Assembly: GCA_020854145.1 (NCBI GenBank)
Contig: JADZFZ010001081.1
Span: forward strand, 1-62,104
Direction of reading: 5' to 3'
DNA from: Deltaproteobacteria bacterium
Lineage (GTDB): Bacteria > Myxococcota_A > Polyangia > Polyangiales > JADZFZ01
Length of the DNA stretch: 62,104 nucleotides
Numbering within the stretch: position 1 is the stretch's first letter; the number at the start of each line of letters is the position of its first letter. The notes beneath the pieces are model-generated. The model was not told the DNA's origin. It did no database searches and saw only the letters and a list, made by a program, of their open reading frames with translations. Shown here in pieces: positions 14,141-61,120 of this stretch. The position numbers were made by a program, and so were the translations under genes.

Positions 14141-14156
14141 GCCGTCCCCGCCAGGC

Positions 14157-29049: not shown

Positions 29050-30948
29050 ATGGACACAACCCACATGGGCACGATGGGCTTCTGGTCGCAGATGCCGCTT
29101 CCGGTGGCGGAGCTCGGCGTCGACCTCGATCCGCGTGGAACGAAGTACCTCGACCAATGGTTGCGTGTGCTCGATGCCGGGTTGCGGGTCGGCCTGGCGA
29201 TCGGTCTCGCGAGAGCCTGTCAGATTGGTGCGCTGTCGGCGGTCTGCCAGTCGCTGCTACCGCTGCTTGTCAAACCCAGCCTGGGCAAACGCGCCGACGC
29301 CATCGCGGTGCTCGAGGCCGCTGTTCCCGGCTCGACAGGGTGGAATCTCGACGAGCGGGCGGACGATCTCACCGAGCTCGCAGAGGCACTCGAGGAACGC
29401 CCTCGGAAGAGCGCTCCGAAGCTGCGCGAGGGTCTCAAGCATCTGGCGCGGGTGCGCAACGACGAGAAGCATTGGACGTTGACGCCGCAGCGCGAGGTGG
29501 AGGTGCGAGGTCCGCTGGAGTCGGCGGTACTCTGTCTCCTTCGGTCGAACACCGAGCTCGCACGCGGGCACATGCTGATTCTCCGCAGTATGAAACGCAC
29601 GCAGCCGGGCGAATTCGAATGCGAGGCGTGGTCGCTCCGCGGAGGGAAGTCCGCGGTCCTGCAACACTCCAAGCCCCTGCGGTTCCCGGATCCGATCCAG
29701 GGCCACGTGTATTGGCGGTGCGAGGACGAGACGATCCTTCCTCTCGCGCCTTTTGTGGTGGCACCACCGTTTCAGGACGATCGCGAGTCGGCCAATGATC
29801 AGCACGTATTCCTATTGGACAGCATCGAACGCCGCACCGTCGTCCGGCGCCGTCCGCTCACGCGCGAGACACTCGAACCGCACGATAGCGGGGAGCTCGA
29901 CGCATCGCTGCCTGGATGGCGCAACGCATACGCGCAGGCTGGCGGCCTGCCTGCACCCTCGGAGGCGCCGGACTCCCCCGGGCGAGTGCAGTCGAGTGGG
30001 AGTCAGAGCGCGTGGGAAGTCGCCGAGGTCGACGCACCGATAGCGGCCGGAGTGCCATCCGAACCGCCCATACTGCTCCCCCGCGCGCGTTTGCCGATGC
30101 CGTGGCTGGCGGCGGCCGTCGGCGCACTCGCCCTTACGGCGGCCGCGATAGCGGGCTGGTGGTGGATGTCTGGGGCACCGTCGGGGGGTGCCGTGGTGGC
30201 GAGCTCCGAGGAGACACAGCGTGCGGCGGCGACCCGCAATTGTCCCGCGCGCTGGACCTGGCTCGCGGGCGTCTCGAATCCCGCGTGCTGGCAAACCTTC
30301 GAGGCGACGTGGAGCGACGTTCGGGCGTGTGCGGACTGCTCGGTCCCCACGGCGGAGAATCGGCTGGTGGAGCTGAGCCGCCGTGCCGAGCTGTGTACGG
30401 ATGGGGAGGACGAGCCTGCCAATTGTCTCTCTCCCGGTAGCGCCGAGCGTGTCTGCAGAGCGCTGGGGCTGCGCGACTTCGGTGTCGGCACCGGGCGGCT
30501 TCCGACGGCCGCCGAATGGAAGAATGCCGCGCAGTGGCCCGACCTCGACGCGCCGTCGCTCGTTCTCGCGCGAGCCAACGAGGGCGCGTTCAACCTCTGC
30601 GATAGTACGTTCGTCGCTGCATTCCCGTCGGAGAGGTGCGTGCGACCGACGCTGCTGGACGGCGGTGCTCGCGTGGATCCCCAACACCCGGATAGCTGGG
30701 CTCGCGTCGCACCGGGTGGTCGATTCCCGGCTGATCGTGTGAACGGGCTCTTCGACGTTTACGGGAACGTGTCCGAGTTCGTCAGTCTCGGCAGCGACCG
30801 GTGGGGCGCCGGGGGCCGCTCGTTTCTCTCCGGGATCGCCGAGCGCTCGGGGGCTCTCGTCGTCGGGCCACAGTCGCGGAACCAGCTCGCGGCGGACGAC
30901 TTCGGTGCCCAGTACGGGTTCCGCTGCATCGTGCCGCTGGCGCCCTGA
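29050..30948 (+). CDS. HEPN-like domain, TM helix and FGE/sulfatase-modifying-factor domain
   Basis: RNDEKH (29455-29472); TM WLAAAVGALALTAAAIAGWWW; RLPTAAEWKNAA, NGLFDVYGNVSEF, YGFRC. Confidence 0.8.
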   Translation: MDTTHMGTMGFWSQMPLPVAELGVDLDPRGTKYLDQWLRVLDAGLRVGLAIGLARACQIGALSAVCQSLLPLLVKPSLGKRADAIAVLEAAVPGSTGWNLDERADDLTELAEALEERPRKSAPKLREGLKHLARVRNDEKHWTLTPQREVEVRGPLESAVLCLLRSNTELARGHMLILRSMKRTQPGEFECEAWSLRGGKSAVLQHSKPLRFPDPIQGHVYWRCEDETILPLAPFVVAPPFQDDRESANDQHVFLLDSIERRTVVRRRPLTRETLEPHDSGELDASLPGWRNAYAQAGGLPAPSEAPDSPGRVQSSGSQSAWEVAEVDAPIAAGVPSEPPILLPRARLPMPWLAAAVGALALTAAAIAGWWWMSGAPSGGAVVASSEETQRAAATRNCPARWTWLAGVSNPACWQTFEATWSDVRACADCSVPTAENRLVELSRRAELCTDGEDEPANCLSPGSAERVCRALGLRDFGVGTGRLPTAAEWKNAAQWPDLDAPSLVLARANEGAFNLCDSTFVAAFPSERCVRPTLLDGGARVDPQHPDSWARVAPGGRFPADRVNGLFDVYGNVSEFVSLGSDRWGAGGRSFLSGIAERSGALVVGPQSRNQLAADDFGAQYGFRCIVPLAP

Positions 30949-30954
30949 GGCCGA

Positions 30955-31197
30955 CTACCGGCTGCAGTCGTAGCAGCTGGTCTCGCCCGGAATGGCGATC
31001 GCGCCGCATCGGCACCGCACGTGACCGCCCGAGTGTCGGACCGGCTCGGAGTCGTCCTCGCGCCTGGCGATCGGCGGCGGCGATGACGGACGCTCGGCGA
31101 CCAGGAGCGCGACGTGCGCACGAGCGCGCAAGAGCACGAGCGTGTGGGGCGAAGGGGCGCGGCGACGCAGGACGCTCGGGAGAGGTCGCGCCATCAT
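30955..31197 (-). CDS. small protein with C-terminal CxC..CxxC putative zinc ribbon
   Basis: ATGA overlap with the glutaredoxin stop; ends CRCGAIAIPGETSCYDCSR. Confidence 0.35.
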   Translation of the reverse strand: MMARPLPSVLRRRAPSPHTLVLLRARAHVALLVAERPSSPPPIARREDDSEPVRHSGGHVRCRCGAIAIPGETSCYDCSR

Positions 31198-31442
31198 CCG
31201 TGGCGCTCCAGGGCGGCGCGCACCCTTCGGGGCGTCGGGTCGGTGACCCGGTGGTACTCGTCGTCGTCGCCGAGGACGAAGACGGCCGGGATACCGCGCA
31301 CGCGGAGTCGGTCGGCGAGCCGGCTGCCCGCGGGGGTGTCCACGTCCATCACCCGATAGCGGATGCCCTGGCGGCGAAGCGCGGTCTTGATGGGCTTGCA
31401 GTACACACACCAGTCCGCGGAGAACACGACGACCTGACTCAT
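31194..31442 (-). CDS. glutaredoxin/thioredoxin-fold protein
   Basis: VVVFSADWCVYCK (CxxC), YRVMDVD, RGIPAV (cis-Pro); GGAGG RBS. Confidence 0.8.
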   Translation of the reverse strand: MSQVVVFSADWCVYCKPIKTALRRQGIRYRVMDVDTPAGSRLADRLRVRGIPAVFVLGDDDEYHRVTDPTPRRVRAALERHG

Positions 31443-31703
31443 GGTTCCTCCCTACGCGGCGTCGGCGCCGCCGTTCGCTGGAAGGACGCGTGAGGCGCCG
31501 CATTTCTGACGGAATCGAACTCCGCTCGCCAAACTACGTGGGTCGGAGGAGCCACGTCCTTTCGCGCGCCGAGGTGTCAGAGGACGGGGCTCTGGCGCAT
31601 CTATGCGAACGATGTGTGTCTCGCGACGACGAGGTCCGATTCGGTGTAGTCCCCGACGCGCGCGGTCGATACTCTCGCGGGCCGTGGATGGGGAGGGCAC
31701 GAG

Positions 31704-34700
31704 ATGATGGACGTCTTCGCCCTACGAGAGCACGTCGTCGGCGAGTACCACCGCTACGTGCGGAGCTTCTTCGAAGTCCGCGACCCACGCATCCGTGAGC
31801 TCGTCGACCAGCAGCTCCAGCGTGGCGTGTTCTGGCCCGACCCGCTGGTTCAGCTCAATCCCACCTTCGAGCCCGGTCCGCCGCTTCTCGAGCTCGTGCG
31901 CGAGGGCCTGCTGCACCCGGAGTGCGAGAAGATCTTCGCCGACAAGGACGTGGATGGGACCGTTCGTTCCCCATTTCGTTTCCACAAGCACCAGGTGGAC
32001 GCGTTCCGCGCGGCGCGCGCCGGCAAGCACTACGTCCTGACGACTGGCACGGGCTCGGGCAAGAGCCTCTCGTACATCGTACCGATCGTCGACCACGTGC
32101 TCCGACGCGGGTCGGGTCGCGGCATCCAGGCGATCGTCGTCTATCCGATGAACGCGCTCGCGAACAGCCAGATCGGCGAGCTCACGAAGTTCCTCGAGCA
32201 CGGGTATCCGGCCGGGCATCCTCCCGTGACGTTCAAGCGCTACACGGGGCAGGAGCGCGACGAAGAACGGCGAGAGATCATCGGCAACCCGCCGGACATC
32301 CTCCTCACCAACTACGTGATGCTCGAGCTCCTGCTCACGCGACCGTGGGAGCACCAGCTCGTCGCGGCCGCCGAAGCGCTTCGCTTCCTCGTGCTCGACG
32401 AGCTCCACACCTATCGCGGTCGACAAGGCGCAGACGTCGCGATGCTCGTTCGGCGCGTCCGCGAGGCGTGCCGCGCCCACGACCTGCTCCACGTCGGGAC
32501 ATCGGCGACCCTCTCCGGTGCTGGCTCGTGGGACGCGCAGCGTGCAGAGGTCGCCGAGGTCGCGAGCCGTATCTTCGGTGTGAACGTGGGTAAGGACGAG
32601 ATCGTCGGCGAGACGCTTCGCCGCGTCACGCCGCGCCGCGAGCTCGAGCCCGAGTTCGACGTCCACTTGCGCGAGGTCATCGAGCGCGGAGACACGCCGC
32701 CGACCGACTCCATCGATGCCTTCGTGAATCACCCACTGTCGGTGTGGATCGAGACGAACCTCGGCCTCGAAGAAAAGGGGGGCCGATGGGTGCGCTGCAC
32801 GCCGCGACCCATCTCCGGCGACGATGGCGCGGGACAGGACCTCGCGGACCGCCTCCAGCTCCCGATCGACTTCGCCTTGGGCGCAATCATGCGAACGCTT
32901 CTAGCCGGCTATCGCGTTCGTGATAGCCATCGGCGCCCGCTGTTTGCTTTTCGCCTGCACCAGCTCGTCTCGAAAGGCGACGCCGTTTACGCGTCTCCCG
33001 AGGCCGAGGCCGATCGGCACCTCACTCTCGATGCGCAACAGTTCGTTCCCGGATCGGATCGCGCACGTGTGTTGCTCCCGATCGCGTTCTGCCGTGAGTG
33101 CGGACAAGAGTACTACCTCGTACGAAAGGCCCGAGACGGCCAGGGGCGAACGAGCTACCTGCCGCGCGACATCGGAGACCGCACCACCGACGACGATGGC
33201 GAGCCAGGATTCCTGCACATTCGCGCGCTCGAGCCGTGGCCCGACGGCGGAACCGAGATTCTCCAGCGACTTCCCGACAGTTGGGTCGAGCTCGACAAAC
33301 AGGGCCAGCTCGTCGTTCGGCAGAGTCGTCGCGCGCAAGTGCCGCGCACCGTCTTCCTCGGCCCCGACGGCGTCGAAGGATCCGGCGACGTCCGGGCGCA
33401 ATGGTTACCGGCGCCCTTCCTCTTCTGCCTGTGCTGCGGTGTGTCCTACGGCGCGCACCAGGCCTCCGATTACGGAAAGCTCGGCACACTCGGTTCCGAG
33501 GGACGAAGCACCGCGACGACCATCATGTCGCTTTCGACCATGCGGAGCCTTCGAGCCGAGACCGATCTTCCTCCGGATGCACGGAAGCTGCTGAGCTTCA
33601 CCGACAATCGACAAGACGCCTCCCTGCAGGCAGGGCACTTCAACGACTTCGTAGAGCTCGTCCTCCTTCGCTCCGGGCTCGCCGCGGCGGTACGCAACGC
33701 CGGTTCCTCTGGCATTCGACACGACGAGCTCACCCATCGCGTCTTCGATGCTCTCGGACTCTCCCTCTCGCTCTATGCCTCGAATCCCAATGTCGAGTTC
33801 CTCCAGCGCGAGGAGACCGAACGCGCGCTTCGGGCGGTGCTCGGTTACTACCTCTATCGCGATCTCCGGCGCGGCTGGCGAATCACGTCACCGAACCTGG
33901 AGCAATGCGGCCTGCTGGCGATCGACTACCTGTCGCTCCGACAGTTCTGTGCCGCCAACGACCGATGGGCTTCTCTCCATCCGGTGCTCGCGGGTGCGTC
34001 GCCGGACGAGCGCGAGCGCGCTTGCCGGGTGCTGCTCGACTACATGCGGCGCGAGCTCGCAATTCGGGTCGACTACCTGTCGGCCGCGCACCAAGAGACG
34101 ATCGAGCAGCAGTCTCGGCAATACCTGGTCCCCCCCTGGTCGCTCGACGACATGTCGTCGATGGAGCGTTCGACCATCGTGGTGCCCGGCTCGCGGAGCC
34201 GCGACGCGGATCCCACCGATCGCCTTCTCTTCCTGTCGCCGCGCGGCGGCTACGGTGCCTTCCTCCGAAGGCACGCTACCTTCGCCAGCTGGGCCGGCGA
34301 GCGCCTCCGGATCGACGACACCGACGTGCTCATTCGGGAGCTGCTCACGGCGCTCACGGTGCCCGGTATCGTTCAGCGCGTGCTGGAGCCCCGCGGCGAC
34401 CTCGCAGCGGGCTACCAGGTGAACGCGTCCGCATTGGTCTGGCGCGCCGGCGACGGCGGCCAGGCCTTTCACGATCCGGTTCGAGTCCCGAGCGCTCCCG
34501 AGAGCGGTCTCCGCGCGAACCCTTTCTTCGTGGACTACTACCGTGCCGACACCTCCGTGCTCAAGGCGATGGAGGCCCGCGAGCACACCGCGCAAGTCCC
34601 GAGCAGCGTCCGCGAGGACCGCGAGCAGCGTTTCCGCGATGCCCGCCTGCCGGTCCTCTATTGCTCTCCGACGATGGAGCTCGGTGTCGACATCGCGTCG

Positions 34701-37232
34701 CTGAACGTCGTCAACATGCGGAACGTCCCGCCAACTCCCGCCAACTACGCGCAGCGGAGTGGTCGCGCCGGCCGAAGCGGACAACCCGCCTTCGTTCTCA
34801 CGTATTGCTCGGCAGGGAGTCCCCACGACCAGTACTTCTTCCGGCGCCCCGACCGAATGGTGTCCGGAGCCGTCACCGCTCCCCGGCTCGATCTCGCCAA
34901 CGAGGATCTCTTGCGGGCTCACGTCCACGCGGTCTGGCTGGGTGTCGCGAAGCTCGGTTTGGGCCACTCCCTCGCCGAGGTCCTGGATGTCGGGGGAGAC
35001 GAGCCGACCCTGGAGCTGCAACCGAAGCTCAAAGCCGCTCTGGACGACCGGCGGTTCCGCGATCTCGCACGTGAGCGTGCGACCGACGCCTTGGGTGAAG
35101 CCGTCACCGCCGTGCTCGCACCTTCGGAGACCGTGCACGGTTGGATGACGCGTGTTCTCGATCAGCTCCCGCGATCATTCGACGACGCCTGCGAACGCTG
35201 GCGCTCGCTCTACAGGGCAGCCCTCACGCAATCGAAGCGCCAGCAGCGGCGGGTGCTCGACGCGTCGCTCCATCCACGCGACCGTGAGGCCGCCGCGCGC
35301 TTGCGCGCGGAGGCCGAAGCGCAGATTCGACTTCTCCTCGAAGTCGGGGAGGAGCAACACTCCGATTTCTACAGCTATCGCTATTTCGCCAGCGAAGGGT
35401 TTCTCCCCGGCTACAACTTCCCGAGATTGCCCCTCTCGGCGTTTCTCCCCGGAAGACGCGGAAGTCAGGGCCGCGACGAATTCCTGACCCGTCCCCGTTT
35501 CCTGGCGATCACCGAGTTCGGTCCGCGGAGCATCGTGTACCACGAGGGATCGCGGTACGTGATCAACAAGGTCATCGTCCCCGTCGATGCCGATGGCGCG
35601 AGCATCAATCGCCGAGGCGTGCAGTGTACGAGCTGCGGGTATCTGCATCCCCTCGGAGACGAGCCGGCGCCCGACCTCTGCGAGCACTGCGGCGCGGCGC
35701 TGCCCGGGGCGAGCGACAATCTCTTTCGAATGCAGAACGTCTCCACCCGACGCCGTGATCGGATCAATTCCGACGAGGAGGAGCGCTTTCGTCTCGGTTA
35801 CGAGATGAAGACGGGTCTGCGATTCGCCACACGCGGCGGAGTCGTCTCCGCACAGGAGGCCGAGCTCGCCAGCGCGGATGGGATTCCGCTCGCACGATTG
35901 GTGTACGGAAATGCCGCGACCCTCTGGCGCATCAATCTGGGTTGGCGCCGCCGCCAGAATCGCGATCAGACCGGCTTCTTGCTCGATCTCGATCGCGGCT
36001 ACTGGGCGAAGAACCAGGAGGTGGAGGACGACCCGGACGACGACGTCTCCAGACGGCTCGCTCGGGTCGTGCCCTTCGTGGAGGACCAGAGGAATTGCCT
36101 GCTCGTCGTCCCGTCGACCACGCTGCCCGCCCCCGTGATGGCGAGTCTGCAGTCGGCGCTGAAGAGTGCCGTCCAGATCGTCTATCAGCTCGAAGATCGA
36201 GAGCTCGCTGCCGAGCCACTGCCGAGTGACGACGTCCGCTCGCGGATTCTGCTGTACGAGGCCTCCGAAGGCGGCGCAGGCGTCTTGAGGCGGCTCGTGG
36301 AGGATCCCGGTGCTGCCGCCGTCGTCGCCCGGGCTGCACTCGATCTCTGCCACTTCGACGCAGACACGCTTCGTGATCGCCGACCACCCGACGCGGCCGG
36401 CAACGGCTGCGAGGCAGCCTGCTACGACTGCCTGCTCTCGTACTACAACCAGCGCGAGCACCGACTCCTCGACCGCAAGCTCCTTCCGGAGCTGCTTCGT
36501 ACCTGGATGTTGGGAAAGGTCCGGACTTCACCTCGCCCGGAGCCGCGACAGGAGCACGTCGCTCGGCTCAAGCGTCTGGCGCAGTCCGACCTCGAGCGGA
36601 GTTGGATCGACCTGGTGGATCGACAGGGGCTCAAGCTGCCGTCCGACGGTCAGGTGTTCATCGACGCCGCGAACGCTCGGCCGGACTTCCTGTATCGCCA
36701 GGAGGGCGCGGCCATCTTCGTGGATGGGCCGGTCCACGACGACGAACGCCAACGCGGCTCCGACCGCGAGCAACAAGACGCGTTGGAGGATGCGGGCTTC
36801 GCGGTCATCCGCTTCCACCACGCCGTCGATTGGCTCGGGGTCATTCGCGGCTACCCGAGCGTCTTCGGAACCGTGGCATCGATCCCGCCGCCCGGGACCC
36901 ATCCGCCGGGTCCCCAGGTCGAGGGCGTCGATCTCGAGGATTTCGATCCGCAGTGGCAGTCGCTCGTCGTCGCGCTCGCCGGCGATCCGGGAGCTCTGAT
37001 TCGCGCCGTCGGCGACATCGCGGATCCGTCGGGACGCGTGGTTGGATCGTGCCCGGCCGAGGTCGTGGCGGGTGCGAAGTCCGTATTCGTGGTGGACCTG
37101 ACCAGCCCCGATGTCGAGCGCGTCGAGGCGGCTCTGCTCGCCGAGGGTCGTGTCGTCGTGCGCGTCGATCCGGCTGCAGGCGATGCGGCCGAGCGCGTCC
37201 GCGCAGCACTTCGGAACGCGGTGCCGTCGTGA
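31704..37232 (+). CDS. SF2 DEAD/DEAH helicase with DUF1998 (MZB) and DUF559-like nuclease (fused DrmA/DrmB-like)
   Basis: TTGTGSGKS, PMNALANSQ, LDELHTYRG, TSAT, TMELGVDI, QRSGRAGR; C-x..CEAACYDCL; ARPDFLY..AIFVDGPVH..D...L..AGFAVIRF. Confidence 0.92.
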   Translation: MMDVFALREHVVGEYHRYVRSFFEVRDPRIRELVDQQLQRGVFWPDPLVQLNPTFEPGPPLLELVREGLLHPECEKIFADKDVDGTVRSPFRFHKHQVDAFRAARAGKHYVLTTGTGSGKSLSYIVPIVDHVLRRGSGRGIQAIVVYPMNALANSQIGELTKFLEHGYPAGHPPVTFKRYTGQERDEERREIIGNPPDILLTNYVMLELLLTRPWEHQLVAAAEALRFLVLDELHTYRGRQGADVAMLVRRVREACRAHDLLHVGTSATLSGAGSWDAQRAEVAEVASRIFGVNVGKDEIVGETLRRVTPRRELEPEFDVHLREVIERGDTPPTDSIDAFVNHPLSVWIETNLGLEEKGGRWVRCTPRPISGDDGAGQDLADRLQLPIDFALGAIMRTLLAGYRVRDSHRRPLFAFRLHQLVSKGDAVYASPEAEADRHLTLDAQQFVPGSDRARVLLPIAFCRECGQEYYLVRKARDGQGRTSYLPRDIGDRTTDDDGEPGFLHIRALEPWPDGGTEILQRLPDSWVELDKQGQLVVRQSRRAQVPRTVFLGPDGVEGSGDVRAQWLPAPFLFCLCCGVSYGAHQASDYGKLGTLGSEGRSTATTIMSLSTMRSLRAETDLPPDARKLLSFTDNRQDASLQAGHFNDFVELVLLRSGLAAAVRNAGSSGIRHDELTHRVFDALGLSLSLYASNPNVEFLQREETERALRAVLGYYLYRDLRRGWRITSPNLEQCGLLAIDYLSLRQFCAANDRWASLHPVLAGASPDERERACRVLLDYMRRELAIRVDYLSAAHQETIEQQSRQYLVPPWSLDDMSSMERSTIVVPGSRSRDADPTDRLLFLSPRGGYGAFLRRHATFASWAGERLRIDDTDVLIRELLTALTVPGIVQRVLEPRGDLAAGYQVNASALVWRAGDGGQAFHDPVRVPSAPESGLRANPFFVDYYRADTSVLKAMEAREHTAQVPSSVREDREQRFRDARLPVLYCSPTMELGVDIASLNVVNMRNVPPTPANYAQRSGRAGRSGQPAFVLTYCSAGSPHDQYFFRRPDRMVSGAVTAPRLDLANEDLLRAHVHAVWLGVAKLGLGHSLAEVLDVGGDEPTLELQPKLKAALDDRRFRDLARERATDALGEAVTAVLAPSETVHGWMTRVLDQLPRSFDDACERWRSLYRAALTQSKRQQRRVLDASLHPRDREAAARLRAEAEAQIRLLLEVGEEQHSDFYSYRYFASEGFLPGYNFPRLPLSAFLPGRRGSQGRDEFLTRPRFLAITEFGPRSIVYHEGSRYVINKVIVPVDADGASINRRGVQCTSCGYLHPLGDEPAPDLCEHCGAALPGASDNLFRMQNVSTRRRDRINSDEEERFRLGYEMKTGLRFATRGGVVSAQEAELASADGIPLARLVYGNAATLWRINLGWRRRQNRDQTGFLLDLDRGYWAKNQEVEDDPDDDVSRRLARVVPFVEDQRNCLLVVPSTTLPAPVMASLQSALKSAVQIVYQLEDRELAAEPLPSDDVRSRILLYEASEGGAGVLRRLVEDPGAAAVVARAALDLCHFDADTLRDRRPPDAAGNGCEAACYDCLLSYYNQREHRLLDRKLLPELLRTWMLGKVRTSPRPEPRQEHVARLKRLAQSDLERSWIDLVDRQGLKLPSDGQVFIDAANARPDFLYRQEGAAIFVDGPVHDDERQRGSDREQQDALEDAGFAVIRFHHAVDWLGVIRGYPSVFGTVASIPPPGTHPPGPQVEGVDLEDFDPQWQSLVVALAGDPGALIRAVGDIADPSGRVVGSCPAEVVAGAKSVFVVDLTSPDVERVEAALLAEGRVVVRVDPAAGDAAERVRAALRNAVPS

Positions 37233-49036: not shown

Positions 49037-49305
49037 TCTCGGGCGCGTCGCAGGGCTTCGCGTCCCGCGGGGAGATGCTCGCCAGTCGGGCCGCTCTGGC
49101 GTCATGTGGCTCGTGTGACTTCAAGGGCGCGCGCTGCCGCTGAGGGTATCACCCCTCTCCGGGAGCCTGGGACCGCGTACCCCCCGGAGTGGTGTGCCGG
49201 CACGCGGGAGACCGCGCGGCCGCCGGAGGTGCGCATCGGTGAGGCGCTGGCCGGGTTCGCCCGCGCACGATTGCGGGAGCGTGGCCCTCGAATGCAGGTG
49301 AGTCG

Positions 49306-50949: not shown

Positions 50950-53518
50950 TCTGGCGCTCCTCGACCGGCTGTCCGATGCCGGCTTCTCGGCGAGCATCGC
51001 CACCACGTACAACGTCTACCTCCCGTTCTACGAGCAACTCGTCCTCCGACGCCTGCGCGCCGCGGGTTGCCAACACAACGTGCTCCTCGTGGACGCGAGC
51101 CAGCTTGCGGCCTCCATCGCGGACGAGCACCAGCGTCCCCGGCTCGCTGGCATCGATTACACCCTCGTGCCGGTGAGCGCCGGAGGCGCCTTCCACCCGA
51201 AGGTGCTGCTCCGCCTCGGCAAGCGGAAAGGCTCGCTCTACGTCGGCAGCCACAATCTCACCCTCGCGGGGACGGGCCACAATCACGAGCTCACGACCGC
51301 GGTTCGTTACGACGGAACGGGCTCACGCGAGGCCGTCGTCCATTTCCGCGAGGTGATCGCCGAGCTTCGCGGCTACCTCGAAACCTCGCTTCCTGGTGTG
51401 CGCGAAGCCTTCGAGGCCGCCGTGCGCACGGCACCGTGGTTGTCGGGTCCCGCGCCGGTCTCGCCCGACACCGTCGTCGTCGGGAGCCACCGCGATGTGG
51501 CGACGCTCTGGACTCGCGTACGCAAGCTGGTTCGCGGCGCCGCGCGTCGCGTCCTGGTCGTGGGGCCTTTCTTCGACGAAGAGCTCTCTCTGCTTCGCGC
51601 GATTGCTCGGGATCTCCTGCCGACCGAGGGGATCTTCGTCGCCATCGACCCGGAGACGGTGTCCATCGATCCGACCGTCGCGGCCGCGGCGCCGTTTCGG
51701 TTCGTCGATGCGTCGGGGCAGCTCCCGCGGGAGAGGCGTCGGGACGGCGAGCGTGGCTATCTCCACGCCAAGGCGCTCTGGTTCCAGACCGATGAAGGGG
51801 AGTTGCTCGTCCTCGGAAGCGCGAATCCCACCGCGGCTGCGTTCCTCCTCGATCTCGCGAATCGTAACGCGGAGATCGTCGTCGCGCGCTGGTCCGAGGC
51901 GACGACTACCGAGCTCCTCGGCGAGGCGGGGCTCGGGCCGCTGCTCGAGGCGCCTCCCGTCACCGAGACCCAATGGGCCGCGCTGCACGCACGCAACGAC
52001 GCCGACGGTGAGTCGGGTGACGCCCCCGCAACCGACCGAGCAGGCGTTCTTCTCGCGGAGACGGTCGAGGATGGGTTTCTCGTCGGCGGCGTGATCGCCG
52101 ATCGCGTGGTCGCGCTCGACGACGACGGCACCGAGCTCGAGACGCTGCAACCCGATCCTCCGGCGGATTCCAAGACCCATGTTCCCGCGTCGGCCGAGAC
52201 GCGCGACCGCGCGAGGTGGCTGCGCTCGACGACCGACCAGGGGTCCGTGGTCCTCGTTCACCACACGACGCGCGTCGCCGAGCTCTACGTGTCCAGTGCA
52301 CGTCGCGAGCTCCGGGCTGCGCTCGGCCGGCTCGACGAGGATCCGTCGCAACTCGAGACGCTGCTTCAATTGACCGAGAAGGCGATCTTCGATTCGGGCG
52401 ACATCACGCGTCCAGCGGTACGCGGTGACCACGGGAGCCCGGACGGGGTCACGGCGACGCCCGTCTCGGAGGCCAGCTCACTCGCAATCGACGCCCAAGG
52501 ACGCCCGTCTGCTCGGCGCAAACGGAGGCAGATCGCCAGCGGAGACCTCGCCGTGCTCCTCGACGCGCTCATTCATCGATTGGGACAGGGCCTATTGTCG
52601 GTTGCGACGGGTGACGAGGGCAGAAGCGAGGAGGAGTTGGTCGGTTCGGACGACGACGAGCCGCCCATCGCCACGCCGCCGCTCGATCTCGACCTGTCCG
52701 CACTCGCGGAGAAGTGTCGGCGGAAGGTGAAGCTGCTCGTCAAACGGATGCTGGCGCAGCTCGACAAGGCCAAGGCTGCCCCCGACGACGCCGAGCCCTC
52801 GCGTCGTGCCGTCGTGCAGCTCGCCGCAGTCCTTGCCATCATTCGCGCGCTCCGCGCCTACGAGCGCCGATCCGAATGGCGGCGCGCGGGATTGCGCCTG
52901 CTCGACGACAAGGCCCTCGTCCAGCTCTTCGATTCAGCCAACGCGTCTCTCGTCCCTCCGGAGGATGGGATTCTCGCGCGTGCCCTCGTTGCCAACTACG
53001 ACGAGCCGTTCGAGGAGCATCACCTCGTGATTGGCCTCCTCGTGTGGTTGGCGTGGGAGACCGGCATCGACCTCGAGCACCCGCTCTCCGCCACCCTGTC
53101 CGTCGAGCTCGACGCCGACCCGTGGCCGCCGCTGCAGTGGCTGCTCTTCCTGGCTCCATGGATCGACGACCACGTTACGAGGACGATCGAGGACGCCGTG
53201 CGCGCCACGCCGCGCCGCGGACATGATCCCGAACGCTGGCTTCGAGCCCACCTTCCGTGGCTCCAATTCGTTGCCAGCATCGAGCGCTCGCCCGACCCCT
53301 CGGCGACCCTCGGCGGACGCTTCGCGCGCGGGGACCTCGTGTGCCTGGCCGCGAGTCAGCGCCCGCGCGTCCGCCTCGTTCTCCGCGTCGACGACGGAAC
53401 CCAGGGCGCGAAGCTCCAGCTGATGCGCCCCGACGGGACTCTGATGTGGATGCTCGCGTCGCGCGTCGCGCGAGTGCCCACCGAACCCAACGTGCATGCC
53501 GCAGTCGGAGCCCGGTGA
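50942..53518 (+). CDS. phospholipase D-family nuclease with two HxK motifs
   Basis: FHPKVLL..LYVGSHNLT and LHAKAL..LVLGSANPT; TTG start overlaps the upstream stop by 8 nt. Confidence 0.82.
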   Translation: MGDLALLDRLSDAGFSASIATTYNVYLPFYEQLVLRRLRAAGCQHNVLLVDASQLAASIADEHQRPRLAGIDYTLVPVSAGGAFHPKVLLRLGKRKGSLYVGSHNLTLAGTGHNHELTTAVRYDGTGSREAVVHFREVIAELRGYLETSLPGVREAFEAAVRTAPWLSGPAPVSPDTVVVGSHRDVATLWTRVRKLVRGAARRVLVVGPFFDEELSLLRAIARDLLPTEGIFVAIDPETVSIDPTVAAAAPFRFVDASGQLPRERRRDGERGYLHAKALWFQTDEGELLVLGSANPTAAAFLLDLANRNAEIVVARWSEATTTELLGEAGLGPLLEAPPVTETQWAALHARNDADGESGDAPATDRAGVLLAETVEDGFLVGGVIADRVVALDDDGTELETLQPDPPADSKTHVPASAETRDRARWLRSTTDQGSVVLVHHTTRVAELYVSSARRELRAALGRLDEDPSQLETLLQLTEKAIFDSGDITRPAVRGDHGSPDGVTATPVSEASSLAIDAQGRPSARRKRRQIASGDLAVLLDALIHRLGQGLLSVATGDEGRSEEELVGSDDDEPPIATPPLDLDLSALAEKCRRKVKLLVKRMLAQLDKAKAAPDDAEPSRRAVVQLAAVLAIIRALRAYERRSEWRRAGLRLLDDKALVQLFDSANASLVPPEDGILARALVANYDEPFEEHHLVIGLLVWLAWETGIDLEHPLSATLSVELDADPWPPLQWLLFLAPWIDDHVTRTIEDAVRATPRRGHDPERWLRAHLPWLQFVASIERSPDPSATLGGRFARGDLVCLAASQRPRVRLVLRVDDGTQGAKLQLMRPDGTLMWMLASRVARVPTEPNVHAAVGAR

Positions 53519-55722
53519 TGACGGTCGACGGTGACGCGAGCGCGTTCCTCGCGCGGCTCTGGGCCCACCTTCTCGGGGGTGCGCCGGATCTCGCGGTCGT
53601 CGTGCGGCCCATGGACGGCGGCGAGCGCAGGGCGTCGGGCGAATGGCGAGTGCCCGCTTTCGCGCCGGAGCAGATCAGCATCGGCCCCGACGAGCTGCCG
53701 TCGTTCGTCGCAGGGCTGGGAACCCGGAGGCGGCAGCGACTGCTCGTCGTGGCACTCGGATACCCCGGGGCTGATAGGTCGGATGTAACCGATCCGGTCG
53801 GAGAGGCCCTGGCCGATCTGCCCGCGGACATTCGGTGCGCGATCTGGCTACCCGCAACTGCCCTGGAGAGTCGGAGAACCGCCGCGATGCGCAGCGCGTT
53901 GAGGGGCAGAGCACGGTGGATTGTCTGGCTCCGCGACCTCGTGAATCCGCTCTTCGACATCCACGCGCTCTTCGACTCCGCACTCGTGGTGACCGGCGGA
54001 GCCGACGACGGGTGTATTCGCCTGGTCGACCTCCGTCGTGCCCGGACCCACGACGACGCTATCGATGCAGTCGCGCGCTGCGGTGTTCGGGGCGGTGGCG
54101 AGGTCGAGAACACGATCGTCCTGCGCAAGGACACCGTCGCGCTGGACGACGCTCCCTGGACGTTCCTCCGCTTCTCACGGGTCCTCTCCGATTCGCTCGC
54201 GGACACACGGGCGCTCGGTCCCACCGTCACGCTCGGCGACGTCGCCGATATCGCCCGTGCTGTACATCGATTCGAGCGCGCTCGAGGAGGAGCCGCGGGT
54301 CGTCCGGGATTGCACCGGGCATACGACGCGCGGTCGCTCCGAGAAGATGGTTCGCTGGGGGATGACATCGGCAGCCTTTCACCCGAGAAGATGCGGCCCG
54401 CCGCAGCCCTGCGCGCTTGTGACGTCCTGGTTCGTACGATCCGCCGCACCGGCGAGCCGCTTCGCGCCGCTGTCGTCACCGATGCGAACCTCCCCGCCGT
54501 GGCTGTCGGCAACCTCGTGCGGGTTCGATTTCGCGAGCCGCCGCGCTGGCTCGATCTGCTCACGTCCTACTTGGGATCGGAAAGAGTCACCAAGCGTCTC
54601 GACGCGGCGAGCTCCGGCTCCCACGTGCACGTTGCCGTCCTCCGGGAACTGCCGATCCCGGTCCCGAATCCGGAGGTGCTCGATGCCCTCGATCGCCTCC
54701 AACGAGACGAGCGACACCACCTTCGTTGGGCGGCGGAGCTTCAAGAAGCTCGACGGGGCCTGTTCCAATCGCGCTCGTACCGTGACGACGTCCCTCGCCT
54801 GCTTGCAGTCGCCCGCGAATCGGCCGACCGCGTCGAAGCCGCGCACTTCGCAGGAACCCTCGAGGCTCTGATTCGGGATCGGTTTCCCCATCCCTTCGCG
54901 CTGAGGTGGGATGTGCTCGCGACGCTCCCGCACGGGGAGAAGCGCTTCGGCAAGACGCTGGAATGCGCAGAGCACTGGTTCACGTACCTCGCCATCCTGG
55001 CGACTACCGTGCGGGTCCAGCTCGGCAAGTCACCCCTTGTTCAACCCAGCTGGGTCGACAGAGGCAATCGACTGACCTTCGACTTCGGCAAAGTCGTAGA
55101 CATCGTGCGGAGCACGGCGGCCCTCTGTTCCAAGCACCCCGACCCGCTGGAGCTCGCAGTCCCCGAGCTCGCGCGCCTGCACGAGGCGTTCTGCGACACC
55201 GACGGCAAGTGGACCCACGCCGTCCGCGACTTGATGGACGTGCGAAACAAGCAGGCGCACCTCACCCGCCTGCCGCCGGGCGAACTGGCCGACCTCTGTC
55301 GGCGCATGTCGGCCGACCTCGCAGTCGTGTTCGACGCGTGCCGCTTCGTGACCGCCACGCCGCTGGTTCACGTGCTCGACTACCGCCTGGACCCGATGAC
55401 GGGCGGGAGGCTGGCGACCTACGAACGTCTCGTCGGGATCAGTGCCGCCGCACGTCGAGAGACTGCGTTGGTGCAGCGCGAGCTTCCTCGTGGCGGCGTC
55501 GGGATCCTCGACAGGAAGGGTCAGTTCCACTCGCTCGCGCCGTGGCTCCTGCGCGAAGCGTGTGAGTCCTGCAAGCGACCGGAGACGTTCGTCTTCAGCA
55601 AGATGGACGGTGAGGACGTTTCCTGGGTCGCCTTCGAGACGGGCCATCCGCGCTTGCGCTCGGACATGGCTGCTCGTGTTCGCGCCGCGATAGGCTCGAA
55701 CGACTCGGATGGCAGCCGATGA
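53518..55722 (+). CDS. degenerate N6-MTase, TRD (HsdS-like) and HEPN-like fusion
   Basis: TGATG overlap; AIWLPATAL...MRSAL..WIVWL..LF resembles MTase C-half without FxGxG/NPPY; LGDVADI, DVLV, L..YLGS, LRELPIPVP (TRD); RNKQAH (55243-55260). Confidence 0.65.
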   Translation: MTVDGDASAFLARLWAHLLGGAPDLAVVVRPMDGGERRASGEWRVPAFAPEQISIGPDELPSFVAGLGTRRRQRLLVVALGYPGADRSDVTDPVGEALADLPADIRCAIWLPATALESRRTAAMRSALRGRARWIVWLRDLVNPLFDIHALFDSALVVTGGADDGCIRLVDLRRARTHDDAIDAVARCGVRGGGEVENTIVLRKDTVALDDAPWTFLRFSRVLSDSLADTRALGPTVTLGDVADIARAVHRFERARGGAAGRPGLHRAYDARSLREDGSLGDDIGSLSPEKMRPAAALRACDVLVRTIRRTGEPLRAAVVTDANLPAVAVGNLVRVRFREPPRWLDLLTSYLGSERVTKRLDAASSGSHVHVAVLRELPIPVPNPEVLDALDRLQRDERHHLRWAAELQEARRGLFQSRSYRDDVPRLLAVARESADRVEAAHFAGTLEALIRDRFPHPFALRWDVLATLPHGEKRFGKTLECAEHWFTYLAILATTVRVQLGKSPLVQPSWVDRGNRLTFDFGKVVDIVRSTAALCSKHPDPLELAVPELARLHEAFCDTDGKWTHAVRDLMDVRNKQAHLTRLPPGELADLCRRMSADLAVVFDACRFVTATPLVHVLDYRLDPMTGGRLATYERLVGISAAARRETALVQRELPRGGVGILDRKGQFHSLAPWLLREACESCKRPETFVFSKMDGEDVSWVAFETGHPRLRSDMAARVRAAIGSNDSDGSR

Positions 55723-55789
55723 TGCCCCGTCACCACTCTCTCCTTCGGACGCGTGAAACCTCGACCCGTCGTTGGTACGTGGAGGTCGC

Positions 55790-58147
55790 GTGACTCAGGA
55801 CAAACCATCCAGTCGTCCGGCTGAGCCTGAAGCTATACCCGGGACGCGCCCCGGGATGCGCACTCTCCCCGAGCGCCGCAATCCCAGCGAGCTGACCGAC
55901 CCGTTGGACACGACGATTCGCCTGGGAAGTGGTCGGCCTTCAACCGTTCTGCCGGTCGGCACGCGTGGTCATGTCGGTGGGGCCGCTTGCTTGGTGCCAG
56001 ACGATCCCTCCGGGCAACGCTTCCTGCTGCTCGACGGGACACCGCGTAGCGTGGGCCGCTCGCACGACAACGATCTCGTGAGCAACGACCCCTCCATGTC
56101 TCGGCGCCATTTTCAGGTCTATCTCGTCCGAGACACCCTGCGCGACGGCTCACCGGACAACCGCTGGCTCGTCGAAGACCTCGGCGCGACCAACGGAACC
56201 TTCCTCGGAAGCGAGAAGCTCAGCCGCGAGGCTCCTCGCCCGCTGCCAGACGGCAGCGTCATCCGGGCCGGCGACCGACGGTTTAGGTTCTACCGAGCGG
56301 ACGGCGAGCATCGGCCCGCCGTTCGTCGATTCCTCGAGGACCCCGACTCGCAGGTCTTCAACGCGGAAACCGTCAAGCTAGAGATCGAGCGCCTCGCGCG
56401 CCGGGGTGGCGGATCGCATTTGGCCTTGGTCGGCATCGACGACTACTCCTGGTTTGCCGAACGACTCGACGAGGTTCGGCGGCAGCGATTGCTTCAACAC
56501 GTCGGGAGTCAGTTGCTGGCCGCGCTCCACGCGCACGAAGGCGGCGCCTGTCTGCTGGGCGTGGTGGAGCCGGGCACCTTCTCGTTCTTCCCCGCCGGCG
56601 CGCTGGCAGTAATCCACTCCGCGCTACGGGAATCGTTGGATCAAACCGAGTCTGTCCTGCGGGACATGGCAATCGGCGGCTCGATCAGGGTGTCAGCATC
56701 GCTGGTCCCTGTACCTCCCGACGCGTCTGCCACCGATGTGATCCAGCGCGGACTCGACAAGGTGAGACAAGCGACTCACGCCGGCGGCAACCGCGTCACC
56801 ACCACGGATATTCGACCGCTGTGGGACAAGCGAAGACGGGACCTGTGGTTGGCGAGGCTTCCGACGATGAGCTCGGTCGCCCTGGCGAGCGCCGGCTCGA
56901 CGGGAGGCACGCTCGGCAGTGACGTGGTTCTCCGATGGGTGGCGACTGCAATCGACGGCCTCCCGAGTGGCACGGAGGTCGCGATATGTCTCAGCGCGTT
57001 GCCGGCGTCGTGGCTGATCGCCGCCTCGTGCAGTACCGAAGAGCTCCGGCGAGTTCTCGCCAAGACCCCCGACGTCCGGATCCGCATGGCGGATTCGGGG
57101 CCGACGGCGAGCCGTTGGGTCGAACACGTCGAGTCGGGCTTCGTCGGCGCAGCCGCGCCGGGCCGTCGGCCACTGTGGCTGTTCTCGCAGCTCGAGGCCG
57201 ACTACCGATCATCGTCCGAGGGTGAACGCTTGTTGAAGGCGATTCAGGGATTCGAAGGCATGCTCCGGTTCGTGGGCAACCTGACGATCGCATGTCTCGC
57301 GCATGCGCGAATTCAGTCCACGGAAGCATCCCGCGCGACTTTGCGGTCGGCGACGCTCCGCAGTCTGGCGCTCTCGAAGGCAGAGAGGTTCCCCGCCTCC
57401 GGGGAGTGGCTGCAGATTGCTGTGGAAATCGGCGAGGTCCTCGACGCGAGCGCCGTTCCGGCCGCATTGCGGGCACTACTGACGGATTCGAGCTGGATTG
57501 CAAGGTGTGGGAAAGCCGCCGCGCTTAGGGGGGAGCATGTCCACGGGCCCACTGGGCCCCGGGAGGCGACCGCCGAGCTGTGGGCGTGTGTGAAGCGGTG
57601 CATGAGCCTCTTCGTCGAGGACGAGCTTCGCATCGTCAAGGTCGACTCCGTGGAGGCGCGGCGGGGCCGACGCGATCGGTGGCGTGTTCATTATCGTCGG
57701 CTCGCATCGGCCGGGCCGTTGGGGGATGTGGAGGAGAAGGAGATCGAGGGCACTGCCGTGTCCCGCGGTCTATGGGCAATCGAAGGCAACACGTGGATTC
57801 CCCTGTCGCCGCTGCTGGAGCTGGAGCGGTGCCCCGACTGCAATCGATTCGACCTCTTCGCTGCGAAGGCATTCCCCCGAAAGGAGCACGCCTTCGGCAT
57901 GGTGGGCCTGGTGGACCCACATCCGTGGAGAAGTCGAGTGTCCGAGGACGAGCCGGAGCTGTGGCTGCTGCTGGGGGCCCTCGCCGAGCCATCGACTGCC
58001 CCACCGGCGCCCCGAGATTGCGAGATTACGGGCCAGTTCAATCTCGCGCGTATCGTGGCGCTCGAGGAGTCCCACGGAGCCAACGCCGATCCGCGCGACA
58101 CATTGCCCCTGGACCAGCGACGAGATCGGGGGCGGGACGATGACTGA
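55790..58147 (+). CDS. FHA, degenerate GGDEF and HEPN-like fusion protein
   Basis: GGAGG RBS; GRSHDNDL..DPSMSRRH, EDLGATNGTF (FHA); DPDSQVFN..LALVGIDDY with no GG(D/E)EF; LRGEHVHG (57527-57544), LSPLL..CPDC. Confidence 0.75.
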   Translation: MTQDKPSSRPAEPEAIPGTRPGMRTLPERRNPSELTDPLDTTIRLGSGRPSTVLPVGTRGHVGGAACLVPDDPSGQRFLLLDGTPRSVGRSHDNDLVSNDPSMSRRHFQVYLVRDTLRDGSPDNRWLVEDLGATNGTFLGSEKLSREAPRPLPDGSVIRAGDRRFRFYRADGEHRPAVRRFLEDPDSQVFNAETVKLEIERLARRGGGSHLALVGIDDYSWFAERLDEVRRQRLLQHVGSQLLAALHAHEGGACLLGVVEPGTFSFFPAGALAVIHSALRESLDQTESVLRDMAIGGSIRVSASLVPVPPDASATDVIQRGLDKVRQATHAGGNRVTTTDIRPLWDKRRRDLWLARLPTMSSVALASAGSTGGTLGSDVVLRWVATAIDGLPSGTEVAICLSALPASWLIAASCSTEELRRVLAKTPDVRIRMADSGPTASRWVEHVESGFVGAAAPGRRPLWLFSQLEADYRSSSEGERLLKAIQGFEGMLRFVGNLTIACLAHARIQSTEASRATLRSATLRSLALSKAERFPASGEWLQIAVEIGEVLDASAVPAALRALLTDSSWIARCGKAAALRGEHVHGPTGPREATAELWACVKRCMSLFVEDELRIVKVDSVEARRGRRDRWRVHYRRLASAGPLGDVEEKEIEGTAVSRGLWAIEGNTWIPLSPLLELERCPDCNRFDLFAAKAFPRKEHAFGMVGLVDPHPWRSRVSEDEPELWLLLGALAEPSTAPPAPRDCEITGQFNLARIVALEESHGANADPRDTLPLDQRRDRGRDDD

Positions 58148-59998: not shown

Positions 59999-60063
59999 CC
60001 CGACCACAGCTGCTGGCGACCGCGACGTTGTCAGATGGCGGCTCGCTCGTACGTCGTGAGGGT

Positions 60064-61047: not shown

Positions 61048-61120
61048 TGCGTATTTCGCGCGATGTGGACGCTCATCTCGCCGTCATGTGGACACGCGTT
61101 TCGCCGTCACGTGGACACCG
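61048..61120. repeat. IS21 terminal region with internal repeats
   Basis: TGCGT ATTTCGCGCGATGTGGACGCTC / ATCTCGCCGTCATGTGGACACGC / GTTTCGCCGTCACGTGGACACCG. Confidence 0.85.

What the first reader, a model, noticed from the sequence alone, without database searches (positions are those of the whole stretch)
29050..58147. One HEPN-like effector module reused four times on four unrelated sensor domains
Seen: four proteins share a helical domain with a G-x-W/K turn and an R-x4/5-H motif: RNDEKH (29455, fused to TM-FGE), RNKTRGH (46886, fused to STAND-TPR), RNKQAH (55243, fused to dead MTase-TRD), RGEHVH (57527, fused to FHA-dead GGDEF). Three also have a beta-rich tail ending L-x-P-(F/W/L)-(V/L), and two of these are followed by CxxC. 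Known: R-x4-6-H is the HEPN RNase motif and HEPNs act as dimers. Inference: a modular sensor-swap immune network covering periplasm, phage proteins, DNA mimics and phosphosignals, with a common effector that could even heterodimerise. This is the best candidate here for an undescribed system.
Basis: partly seen in the sequence, partly recalled or inferred. Interest (0 to 1): 0.88.

Follow-up and report, generated by a model that had tools for sequence, protein, structure and literature searches.

The report
Shared HEPN-like module on four sensors
Four differently built proteins in one myxobacterial defence island really do carry the same uncatalogued ~280-residue domain, most likely an RNA-cutting (HEPN-type) output module. 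They look like four independent sensor-effector proteins, not one interacting network.

Summary
The four motifs are at the stated coordinates. The R-x4-6-H motif alone is common by chance, so it proves little. Profile comparison, however, links all four domains to one family ("X"). Against a hub profile built only from 20 sequences of other genomes, hhalign gives P0001-N 99.6%, P0003-C 99.8%, P0004-C 97.3% and P0002-N 80% (90% with the larger profile). Reversed and shuffled controls give no signal.

X has a helical part followed by a beta-rich part. In two confident AlphaFold models (pLDDT 89 and 94) the RN..H motif lies at the end of a helix and the start of the next loop. A conserved E-x3-K/R lies in helix 2, and there is a helical insert between. 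These are the published HEPN hallmarks. X also gives weak but specific profile hits to HEPN_Swt1 and HEPN_RiboL-PSP. No PDB fold match was found. Pfam, NCBIfam and PADLOC have no model for X.

Elsewhere X is fused to Ser/Thr receptor kinases, NACHT, cNMP-binding and FHA-GGDEF domains.

The "network/heterodimer" reading is not supported. Homologues occur singly, and a syntenic relative lacks the block that includes P0002 and P0003. The P0002 family is a stand-alone gene found across many phyla. RNase activity is untested.

The parts
29050..30948 (+). P0001 (632 aa): X domain, one TM helix, then an FGE-sulfatase-like extracytoplasmic domain
   Evidence: ORF and translation. FGE-sulfatase aa 442-579, E 1e-6. 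TM helix aa 350-368. 27 representative clusters share the N-domain.
29050..29904 (+). X domain of P0001. RNDEKH is at 29455-29472, D-x3-R lies in helix 2, and LAPFVV is near the end.
   Evidence: R136, N137 and H141 are invariant in 26 family members. hhalign 99.6% to the hub profile.
46451..49036 (+). P0002 (861 aa from the ATG that overlaps the MTase stop): X domain, NB-ARC, TPR
   Evidence: 387+ homologues of about 870 aa.
46451..47353 (+). X domain of P0002. E33-x3-K37 is at 46547-46561, G-x-W at aa 68-70, and RNKTRGH at 46886-46906.
   Evidence: AlphaFold pLDDT 88.8, pTM 0.84. R146 and N147 end helix 137-149 and H152 is in the following loop. E33, K37, R146, N147 and H152 are invariant in 21 sequences. 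hhalign 90.3% / 80.3% to the family.
53518..55722 (+). P0003 (734 aa): N-terminal region with a weak TRD-like match, then the X domain
   Evidence: Only 7 homologues found, all in or beside R-M-like, BREX or other defence-type genes.
54835..55719 (+). X domain of P0003. RNKQAH is at 55243-55260 and CESC at 55561-55572, followed by a conserved G-H.
   Evidence: AlphaFold pLDDT 93.6, pTM 0.91. R, N, H, CxxC and GH are invariant in the family.
55772..58147 (+). P0004 (791 aa, start codon uncertain): FHA, degenerate GGDEF-like region, X domain
   Evidence: FHA E 7e-16. Weak LapD-like match at aa 215-344. One homologue at 58% identity. L042 in another genome is FHA, intact GGDEF, then X.
57167..58006 (+). 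X domain of P0004. It has E-G-M-L-R in helix 2. RGEHVH is at 57527-57544 (the N after R is lost). LSPLLE is followed by CPDC at 57830-57841.
   Evidence: hhalign 97.3%, E 2e-11. Genome-wide HMM E 7e-6. R586 and H591 are kept in the homologue.
31704..46454 (+). Context: a DruE-like DEAD/MZB helicase, a UvrD-like helicase, a DpdE/DrmD-like SNF2 helicase and an Eco57I/DrmMI-like methyltransferase. Genes for X proteins follow this R-M-like system.
   Evidence: Pfam and PADLOC. The same system precedes the P0004 homologue (L055) and a P0003 homologue (L056).

Best explanation
The four proteins share one uncatalogued domain of about 280 residues, here called X. X is a divergent HEPN-type helical core. 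An N-terminal helix pair carries a conserved acidic residue, usually as E-x3-K/R. A helical insert carries the G-x-W turn. A third core helix ends in the invariant R-N, the invariant H lies in the following loop, and a fourth helix follows. Behind this core come small beta-barrels that weakly resemble the RNA-binding domain of ribosomal protein uL2. In some members these barrels carry a CxxC...GH site that probably binds zinc.

X is most likely a metal-independent RNase that serves as the output of single-protein sensor-effector switches. The partner domain senses a signal and brings two X domains together, as other HEPN RNases need. The partners are TPR-NB-ARC, a TRD-like region, FHA plus a dead GGDEF, and a periplasmic FGE-like domain.

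The four genes work independently. They lie together because the island collects defence cassettes. The P0003 and P0004 types repeatedly occupy the 3' end of R-M-like systems, probably as backup or guard effectors.

What is shown: homology, motif conservation, motif placement in the models, architectures and gene contexts. What is inferred: RNase activity, dimer activation and an immune role.
For: Homology of the four domains:
- hhalign results, with negative controls.
- HMM rank in the window's own genome.

- Both models show this order of elements.
- In 30 aligned X domains R and H are 30/30 and N is 29/30. E/D in helix 2 is present in 26 of the 29 with a residue there, and K/R four residues later in 16 of those 29.
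- P0002 has invariant E33-x3-K37.

Profile links to HEPN families:
- X helical part against HEPN_Swt1 sequences: 66% probability, P 5.5e-5 over the motif region.
- In a Pfam scan of 30 X domains at E <= 10, the only family hit by more than one sequence is HEPN_RiboL-PSP (3 sequences, best E 0.0036). One more sequence hits HEPN_MAE_28990.

Output role: in cNMP-binding-X (C1108 and C454), X-TM-FGE (P0001) and X-NB-ARC-TPR, X is the only domain left to act as output. In NLR-like proteins it also holds the canonical N-terminal effector position.

Other support:
- The beta part repeatedly hits the uL2 RNA-binding domain (Foldseek prob 0.8-0.95, E 0.07-0.3).
- A protein next to a P0003-like gene has two X-like helical repeats in one chain, which fits a need for pairing.
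- All P0003 homologues examined lie in or beside R-M-like, BREX or other defence-type genes.
Against: - No RNase or toxicity data exist.
- Foldseek found no HEPN structure, and no PDB hit at E <= 0.001, for either confident model.
- The profile links to HEPN families are sub-threshold and cover only about 28 confidently aligned columns.
- P0004 has G instead of the polar residue after R.
- The P0003 family lacks the K/R of E-x3-[KR].
- I could not inspect 3D coordinates, so the closeness of E, R and H and their exposure are not verified.
- Many X proteins are receptor Ser/Thr kinases with no visible defence context, so an immune role does not hold for the whole family.
- The uL2 similarity is not statistically significant.
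Confidence: 0.55

Rival explanations
1. X is a non-catalytic adaptor or oligomerisation module, like the effector-associated or Death-like domains of bacterial conflict systems. The four proteins would then assemble through X-X contacts into one signalling complex.
For: Four of about seven X proteins in a 10-Mb genome lie within 29 kb. One other locus has two X proteins side by side (L063). HEPN domains in general act as dimers.
Against: The four copies share only 13-20% identity. The residues kept across all of them are R, N, H, an acidic residue, G and P, not a surface patch. Homologues occur singly. A syntenic relative lacks P0002 and P0003. P0002 homologues are stand-alone genes in more than 12 phyla.
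Confidence: 0.1
2. X is a catalytic or ligand-binding domain of another kind, for example a DNase, a nucleotide-modifying enzyme or a small-molecule or RNA sensor. It would only mimic the HEPN motif, and its fold would be new.
For: Two confident models have no PDB analogue. No PDB sequence relative was found. The links to HEPN profiles are sub-threshold. In X-kinase receptors the kinase could be the output and X a regulator.
Against: The motif, its position at a helix end plus loop, the helix-2 E-x3-K/R and the inter-helix insert all match the HEPN definition. The only Pfam family hit by more than one of 30 X domains is a HEPN family.
Confidence: 0.25
3. Only three of the four domains are related. 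The N-domain of P0002 would be a separate helical effector family that happens to carry an RN...H-like motif.
For: P0002-N against the hub reaches only 80-90% probability and HMM E 0.42. It has no significant direct match to P0003-C or P0004-C. It lacks the L-x-P tail motif.
Against: The alignment spans 187-195 columns with all anchor motifs in register. Controls score far lower. The two AlphaFold models have the same order of elements. P0002 ranks 8th of 64,848 ORFs. A second P0002-family member also hits the hub HMM (L057).
Confidence: 0.1

Closest known systems
HEPN superfamily RNases (Anantharaman et al. 2013, PMC3710099), especially the Swt1 / MAE_28990 / RiboL-PSP-like families that carry RNxxAH
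   Same: An R-N-x3-5-H motif with a small residue before H, placed at a helix end and the following loop. An acidic E-x3-K/R in helix 2. A helical insert between the core helices. Fusion to STAND NTPases and residence next to R-M systems.
   Different: X matches no Pfam HEPN model above threshold. It has a much larger helical insert with a conserved G-x-W. It is always followed by a beta-barrel part of about 110 residues, often with CxxC...GH. Foldseek finds no HEPN structure.
PrrC / RloC anticodon nucleases embedded in type I R-M loci
   Same: A HEPN-type effector encoded inside or right after R-M-like systems. The P0003 family sits after HsdR, BREX or helicase-MTase systems, and its N-terminal part weakly resembles an HsdS target-recognition domain.
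   Different: There is no ABC-ATPase domain. No interaction with an R-M complex and no activation by a phage anti-restriction factor have been shown.
Avs / bNACHT / NLR-like STAND defence proteins with N-terminal effectors
   Same: P0002 has the layout effector, NB-ARC, TPR. It is a single gene spread by horizontal transfer over many phyla and found in variable regions.
   Different: No PADLOC Avs model matches. The effector is not a known nuclease, SIR2 or TIR domain. The trigger is unknown and defence is untested.
Ire1 and RNase L (kinase or pseudokinase plus KEN/HEPN RNase)
   Same: Many X proteins have the order X, Ser/Thr kinase, TM helix, extracytoplasmic sensor. This combines a membrane receptor, a kinase and a HEPN-like domain with an RNxxxH motif, as in Ire1.
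   Different: The domain order is reversed (X is N-terminal). The kinase is of the bacterial Hanks type. X is not the circularly permuted KEN version. None of the four window proteins has the kinase.

Membership tests
HEPN superfamily | Conserved Rx4-6H motif with a polar residue (N/D/H) right after R | tested here: met
   R and H are 30/30 and N is 29/30 in alignment A6. They are invariant within the P0001, P0002 and P0003 families. P0004 keeps R and H but has G or A after R.
HEPN superfamily | Motif placed at the end of core helix 3 and the start of the loop to helix 4 | tested here: met
   P0002 model: helix 137-149 ends in R146-N147, H152 is in the loop, and the next helix is 157-177. P0003 model: helix 125-140 carries R137-N138, H142 is in the loop, and the next helix is 148-168. 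These are predicted models only.
HEPN superfamily | Conserved acidic residue in helix 2, typically E-x3-[KR], close to the motif | tested here: inconclusive
   E/D is present in 26 of 29 sequences and K/R at +4 in 16 of 29. P0002 has invariant E33 and K37. P0004 has EGMLR and P0001 has DAGLR. The P0003 family has E only. Spatial closeness could not be checked because no coordinates were available.
HEPN superfamily | Four-helix up-down bundle, recognisable by structure comparison with solved HEPN domains | tested here: not met
   Foldseek against the PDB gave no hit at E <= 0.001, and no HEPN protein appears among the top 50 for either model. The order of helices is compatible with the fold. 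Foldseek is weak on short all-alpha cores, so this is a failed detection and not a demonstrated difference.
HEPN superfamily | Significant profile match to an established HEPN family | tested here: inconclusive
   hhalign against a HEPN_Swt1 set: 66%, P 5.5e-5, 28 columns. Against a partly contaminated RiboL-PSP set: 13%. HMMER gives sub-threshold hits to HEPN_RiboL-PSP for 3 of 30 sequences (best E 0.0036) and to HEPN_MAE_28990 for 1 of 30, and no other family recurs. As a calibration, Swt1 against RiboL-PSP scored only 1.4% in the same set-up.
HEPN superfamily | Metal-independent RNase activity that depends on R and H | not testable with these tools
   This needs biochemistry.
Avs / NLR-like anti-phage STAND proteins (for P0002) | Tripartite layout: N-terminal effector, STAND NTPase, C-terminal repeat sensor | tested here: met
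   X at aa 1-301, NB-ARC (E 2e-10), TPR.
Avs / NLR-like anti-phage STAND proteins (for P0002) | Match to a catalogued Avs or bNACHT family model | tested here: not met
   No PADLOC hit at E <= 0.1. NCBIfam gives only a weak hit to the NTPase region.
Avs / NLR-like anti-phage STAND proteins (for P0002) | Protection against phage, triggered by a phage protein | not testable with these tools
   Only context is available: stand-alone genes among transposases and reverse transcriptases, with wide horizontal spread.

The most novel reading that the evidence does not exclude
X defines a large, undescribed HEPN clade that serves as a universal RNase output. It can be gated by NLR-type NTPases, cyclic nucleotides, FHA/GGDEF modules, R-M-mimicking TRD modules and, above all, membrane receptor Ser/Thr kinases. 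The layout X-kinase-TM-periplasmic sensor would be a bacterial mirror image of Ire1 and RNase L: envelope or infection signals would be turned into regulated RNA cleavage through kinase-driven pairing of HEPN domains. In this island, kinase-less versions would have been recruited as backup suicide RNases guarding a DISARM/Druantia-like restriction system.
Probability: 0.3. Interest if true: 0.8.

Novelty: new variant of a known kind. Interest (0 to 1): 0.62.

Why it matters
If X is an RNase, three things follow. First, a HEPN-type effector family that the searched catalogues (Pfam-A 2025, NCBIfam 2026, PADLOC 2023) do not cover would be added to the defence toolbox. This includes a STAND family present in at least 222 species-level genomes across more than 12 phyla. 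Second, there would be new candidates for guard-type effectors that watch restriction, BREX and DISARM-like systems, as PrrC does. Third, bacteria would have receptor-kinase-plus-HEPN proteins that follow the logic of eukaryotic Ire1 and RNase L. An HMM for X would allow these genes to be annotated instead of appearing as "hypothetical" N- or C-terminal extensions.

Tried and rejected
- Pairwise BLASTP and phmmer between the four domains: nothing significant. Direct hhalign of P0002-N against P0003-C or P0004-C also failed. The link appears only through the larger family.
- Pfam, PADLOC and NCBIfam scans of the four proteins found no model covering X.
- A PDB sequence-profile search found nothing.
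- Foldseek against PDB and BFVD gave no significant hit. The MyTH4-FERM, bleomycin hydrolase and aquaporin hits are noise.
- The search for related loci with the broad alignments failed because no stretch was conserved enough.
- My RiboL-PSP control alignment contained some wrong-frame sequences, so its 13% figure is only rough. A first Swt1 alignment had the same fault and was cleaned before the quoted result.
- I considered that the helicase-MTase system always travels with X. This was rejected for the family as a whole: only one of 20 phylum loci has a related SNF2 gene nearby.
- I considered that P0002 is hard-wired to the MTase. This was rejected: homologues are stand-alone and the syntenic relative lacks it.
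- I considered that P0001 belongs to the dynamin operon. This is not supported in the one relative seen: there is no dynamin homologue and the upstream gene is on the other strand.
- Literature searches found no description of this domain. That is not proof that none exists.


Full report
**Setting.** The window is contig C1081 of a fragmented 10-Mb, 67% GC genome. From about 24.6 kb onward nearly all genes are on the + strand and form a defence-type island. In order, the genes are:
- two dynamin-like GTPases (LeoBC/LeoA-like);
- P0001 (29050-30948);
- a 1842-aa DruE-like DEAD/MZB/DUF559 helicase;
- a UvrD/GajB-like helicase;
- a DpdE/DrmD-like SNF2 helicase (PADLOC E 1e-240);
- an Eco57I/DrmMI-like methyltransferase;
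- P0002 (46451-49036; its ATG overlaps the MTase stop);
- a 547-aa protein of unknown function;
- a 930-aa PLD/ZacB-like protein;
- P0003 (53518-55722);
- P0004 (55772-58147);
- an OLD/GajA-like ATPase-TOPRIM protein;
- a GHKL (HATPase_c_3) protein.

**Checking the observation.**
- The partner domains are as described. P0001 has a TM helix and an FGE-sulfatase match. P0002 has NB-ARC and TPR. P0004 has FHA. P0003 has a weak TRD-like match. P0004 has a degenerate GGDEF-like stretch.
- The motif alone is not evidence, because each protein has 5-7 R-x4-6-H matches.
- Pairwise BLASTP and phmmer show nothing significant.

I therefore collected relatives of each domain:
- P0003: 7 homologues.
- P0002: more than 387 homologues of about 870 aa from many phyla.
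- P0004: one homologue at 58% identity.
- P0001: 27 representative clusters in an exhaustive HMMER search of 1.84 billion proteins.

In every subfamily the R and H are invariant. The N is also invariant except in P0004.

**Homology.** The P0001-N profile matches the P0003-C profile over the whole domain: hhalign 96.3%, E 1.5e-9, 232 columns. A search of 401 genomes of the phylum with the P0003-C profile found the domain in 26 genomes. I fetched 20 full loci and built a broad alignment.
- Against this broad profile, P0004-C scores 97.3% (E 2e-11, 230 columns).
- P0002-N scores 90.3% (E 1.5e-6, 195 columns). The N-terminal P-x-P, the helix-2 E, the G-x-W and RN..H are all in register.
- Against a hub profile of only the 20 foreign sequences, the four score 99.6, 99.8, 97.3 and 80.3%.
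- Reversed and shuffled versions score P >= 0.065.
- An unfiltered HMM search of all 64,848 ORFs of the genome ranks P0004 6th (E 7e-6) and P0002 8th (E 0.42), behind only true members.

So the four domains are one family, which I call X. P0002 is the least certain member.

**What X looks like.** AlphaFold gave confident models for P0002-N (pLDDT 88.8, pTM 0.84) and P0003-C (pLDDT 93.6, pTM 0.91). Both have the same order of elements:
- a helix pair;
- a helical insert that holds the conserved G-x-W;
- a helix that ends in R-N, then a loop with the H;
- a long helix;
- about nine short strands.

Conservation across 30 X domains is as follows: R 30/30, H 30/30, N 29/30, the G of G-x-W in all 29 with a residue there, and the P of L-x-P 30/30. 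Of the 29 with a residue at these helix-2 columns, 26 have an acidic residue and 16 have K/R four residues later. About half have CxxC and a later G-H.

- X fits each sequence and secondary-structure feature. P0002 even has invariant E33-x3-K37.
- hhalign of the X helical part against ten HEPN_Swt1 domains (Pfam-validated hits) gives 66%, P 5.5e-5 over the motif region.
- In a Pfam scan of 30 X domains at E <= 10, the only family hit by more than one sequence was HEPN_RiboL-PSP (3 sequences, best E 0.0036). One more sequence hit HEPN_MAE_28990.
- For calibration, the two genuine HEPN families scored only 1.4% against each other in the same set-up.

Against this, Foldseek found no HEPN structure and no significant PDB or BFVD hit. 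PDB sequence profiles also found nothing. I could not inspect coordinates.

The beta part repeatedly hit the RNA-binding domain of ribosomal protein uL2 (prob 0.8-0.95, E 0.07-0.3). That is suggestive of small OB/SH3-like barrels but not significant.

My reading is that X is HEPN-like and probably a divergent member of the superfamily, but membership is not proven.

**Partner domains.** In the phylum sample X is fused to the following:
- Hanks-type Ser/Thr kinases (9 of 20). At least four have a TM helix and an extracytoplasmic FGE-sulfatase, TonB_C, Lcl_C or phosphonate-binding domain.
- NACHT NTPases (at least 5).
- FHA plus an intact GGDEF (L042, the same layout as P0004).
- Nothing (X stands alone).

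In the window's own genome there are also two cNMP-binding-X proteins (C1108, C454) and a 1759-aa X-STAND-TPR protein (C771). In cNMP-X, X-TM-FGE and X-NB-ARC-TPR, X is the only candidate output domain. This argues that X is an effector rather than a sensor.

**Context and the "network" idea.**
- The P0004 homologue lies in a syntenic island of a relative: UvrD, SNF2, MTase, an FRG-domain gene, P0004-like, OLD-like, GHKL. That island has no P0002, 547-aa gene, PLD gene or P0003.
- P0003 homologues all sit among defence-type genes. One lies directly after the same DruE/SNF2/MTase system (L056), one after a BREX system (L061) and one after type I HsdR (L063). Two more lie in a type I R-M region (L059) and between a DUF4325 gene and a NERD-UvrD gene (L062).
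- P0002 homologues are stand-alone genes among transposases and reverse transcriptases. They occur in at least 222 species-level genomes of more than 12 phyla at 40-52% identity.
- The P0001 homologue of the relative is not next to dynamin genes.
- X-kinase and X-NACHT genes of the phylum are not near this helicase-MTase system.

Four of about seven X genes of the genome within 29 kb is thus best explained by cassette accumulation in a defence island. The P0003 and P0004 types fill a recurrent 3' slot of R-M-like systems. This recalls the "auxiliary and backup effectors" described for BREX-related systems (PMC12839542) and PrrC in type I loci. With 13-20% identity between the four copies and single occurrence elsewhere, heterodimerisation is unlikely, though untested.

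One locus gives a hint that pairing matters. Next to a P0003-like gene, a protein carries two X-like helical repeats (GRNRFVHG and LRNEFAHV) in one chain.

**Verdict.**
- Observation: confirmed.
- Interpretation: partly supported. It is one module on unrelated sensors, HEPN-like and uncatalogued. It is not shown to be an interacting network, and RNase activity is inferred only.
- Novelty: a new variant of a known kind. It is a new HEPN-like family with a fixed beta-barrel appendage and several new fusion types.
- The most interesting by-product is the X-kinase-TM-sensor architecture, which mirrors Ire1 and RNase L.

Noticed in passing
G000 contigs C1108:3456-4940 (+) and C454:2-1201 (-): Two proteins with a cyclic-nucleotide-binding domain followed by an X domain (FRNEQRHG motif, CxxC). 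In design they look like cyclic-nucleotide-gated effectors of the Pycsar or CBASS type. No cyclase was seen on these short contigs.
   Followed up: partly
L035:4748-8365 (-), L046:117-3689 (+), L038:2645-5521 (+), L047:4928-8065 (-): Receptor proteins with the order X, Ser/Thr kinase, TM helix, extracytoplasmic domain (FGE-sulfatase, TonB_C, Lcl_C or phosphonate-binding). This is a mirror image of Ire1 (sensor, TM, kinase, KEN/HEPN).
   Followed up: partly
window 31704-46454, and L055, L056: A conserved four-gene R-M-like system: DruE-like DEAD/MZB helicase (with a DUF559 nuclease-like end), an optional UvrD, a DpdE/DrmD-like SNF2 helicase and an Eco57I-type methyltransferase. It mixes hallmarks of Druantia, DISARM and Dpd and matches no single PADLOC system. 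Its 3' end carries variable cargo: FRG, DUF4325/HATPase or X proteins.
   Followed up: partly
L063:6500-8095 (-): A protein convergent with a P0003-like gene carries two X-like helical repeats in one chain (GRNRFVHG and LRNEFAHV). This recalls the two-HEPN layout of Cas13 and Las1. It is cut by the contig end.
   Followed up: no
L056:8736-10004 and L062:1200-2507: A DUF4325 protein (with faint STAS/HATPase hits) lies directly upstream of P0003-family genes in two unrelated loci, once with a 4-nt overlap. It may be a partner or antitoxin-like regulator. The window has none.
   Followed up: no
window 58268-61200: An OLD/GajA-like ATPase-TOPRIM gene overlaps a GHKL (HATPase_c_3) gene. The pair is conserved after the P0004-like gene in the relative (L055). 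It could be a separate two-gene defence system.
   Followed up: partly
window 49306-53518: A 547-aa protein with no family (weak ZacA hit) and a 930-aa PLD-domain protein (ZacB-like, E 2e-20) lie between P0002 and P0003. The block is absent from the syntenic relative.
   Followed up: no
window 7908-17033 (-) and 20563-23301 (-): A type VI secretion VgrG spike gene and a 1543-aa RHS-repeat toxin gene, then a 912-aa MoxR-like AAA_5 ATPase, lie upstream of the defence island.
   Followed up: no
L036:3111-11168 (+): Two X-NACHT genes of about 1340 aa lie head to tail (4-nt gap) in another myxobacterial genome. This is a tandem duplication of an X-STAND sensor.
   Followed up: no
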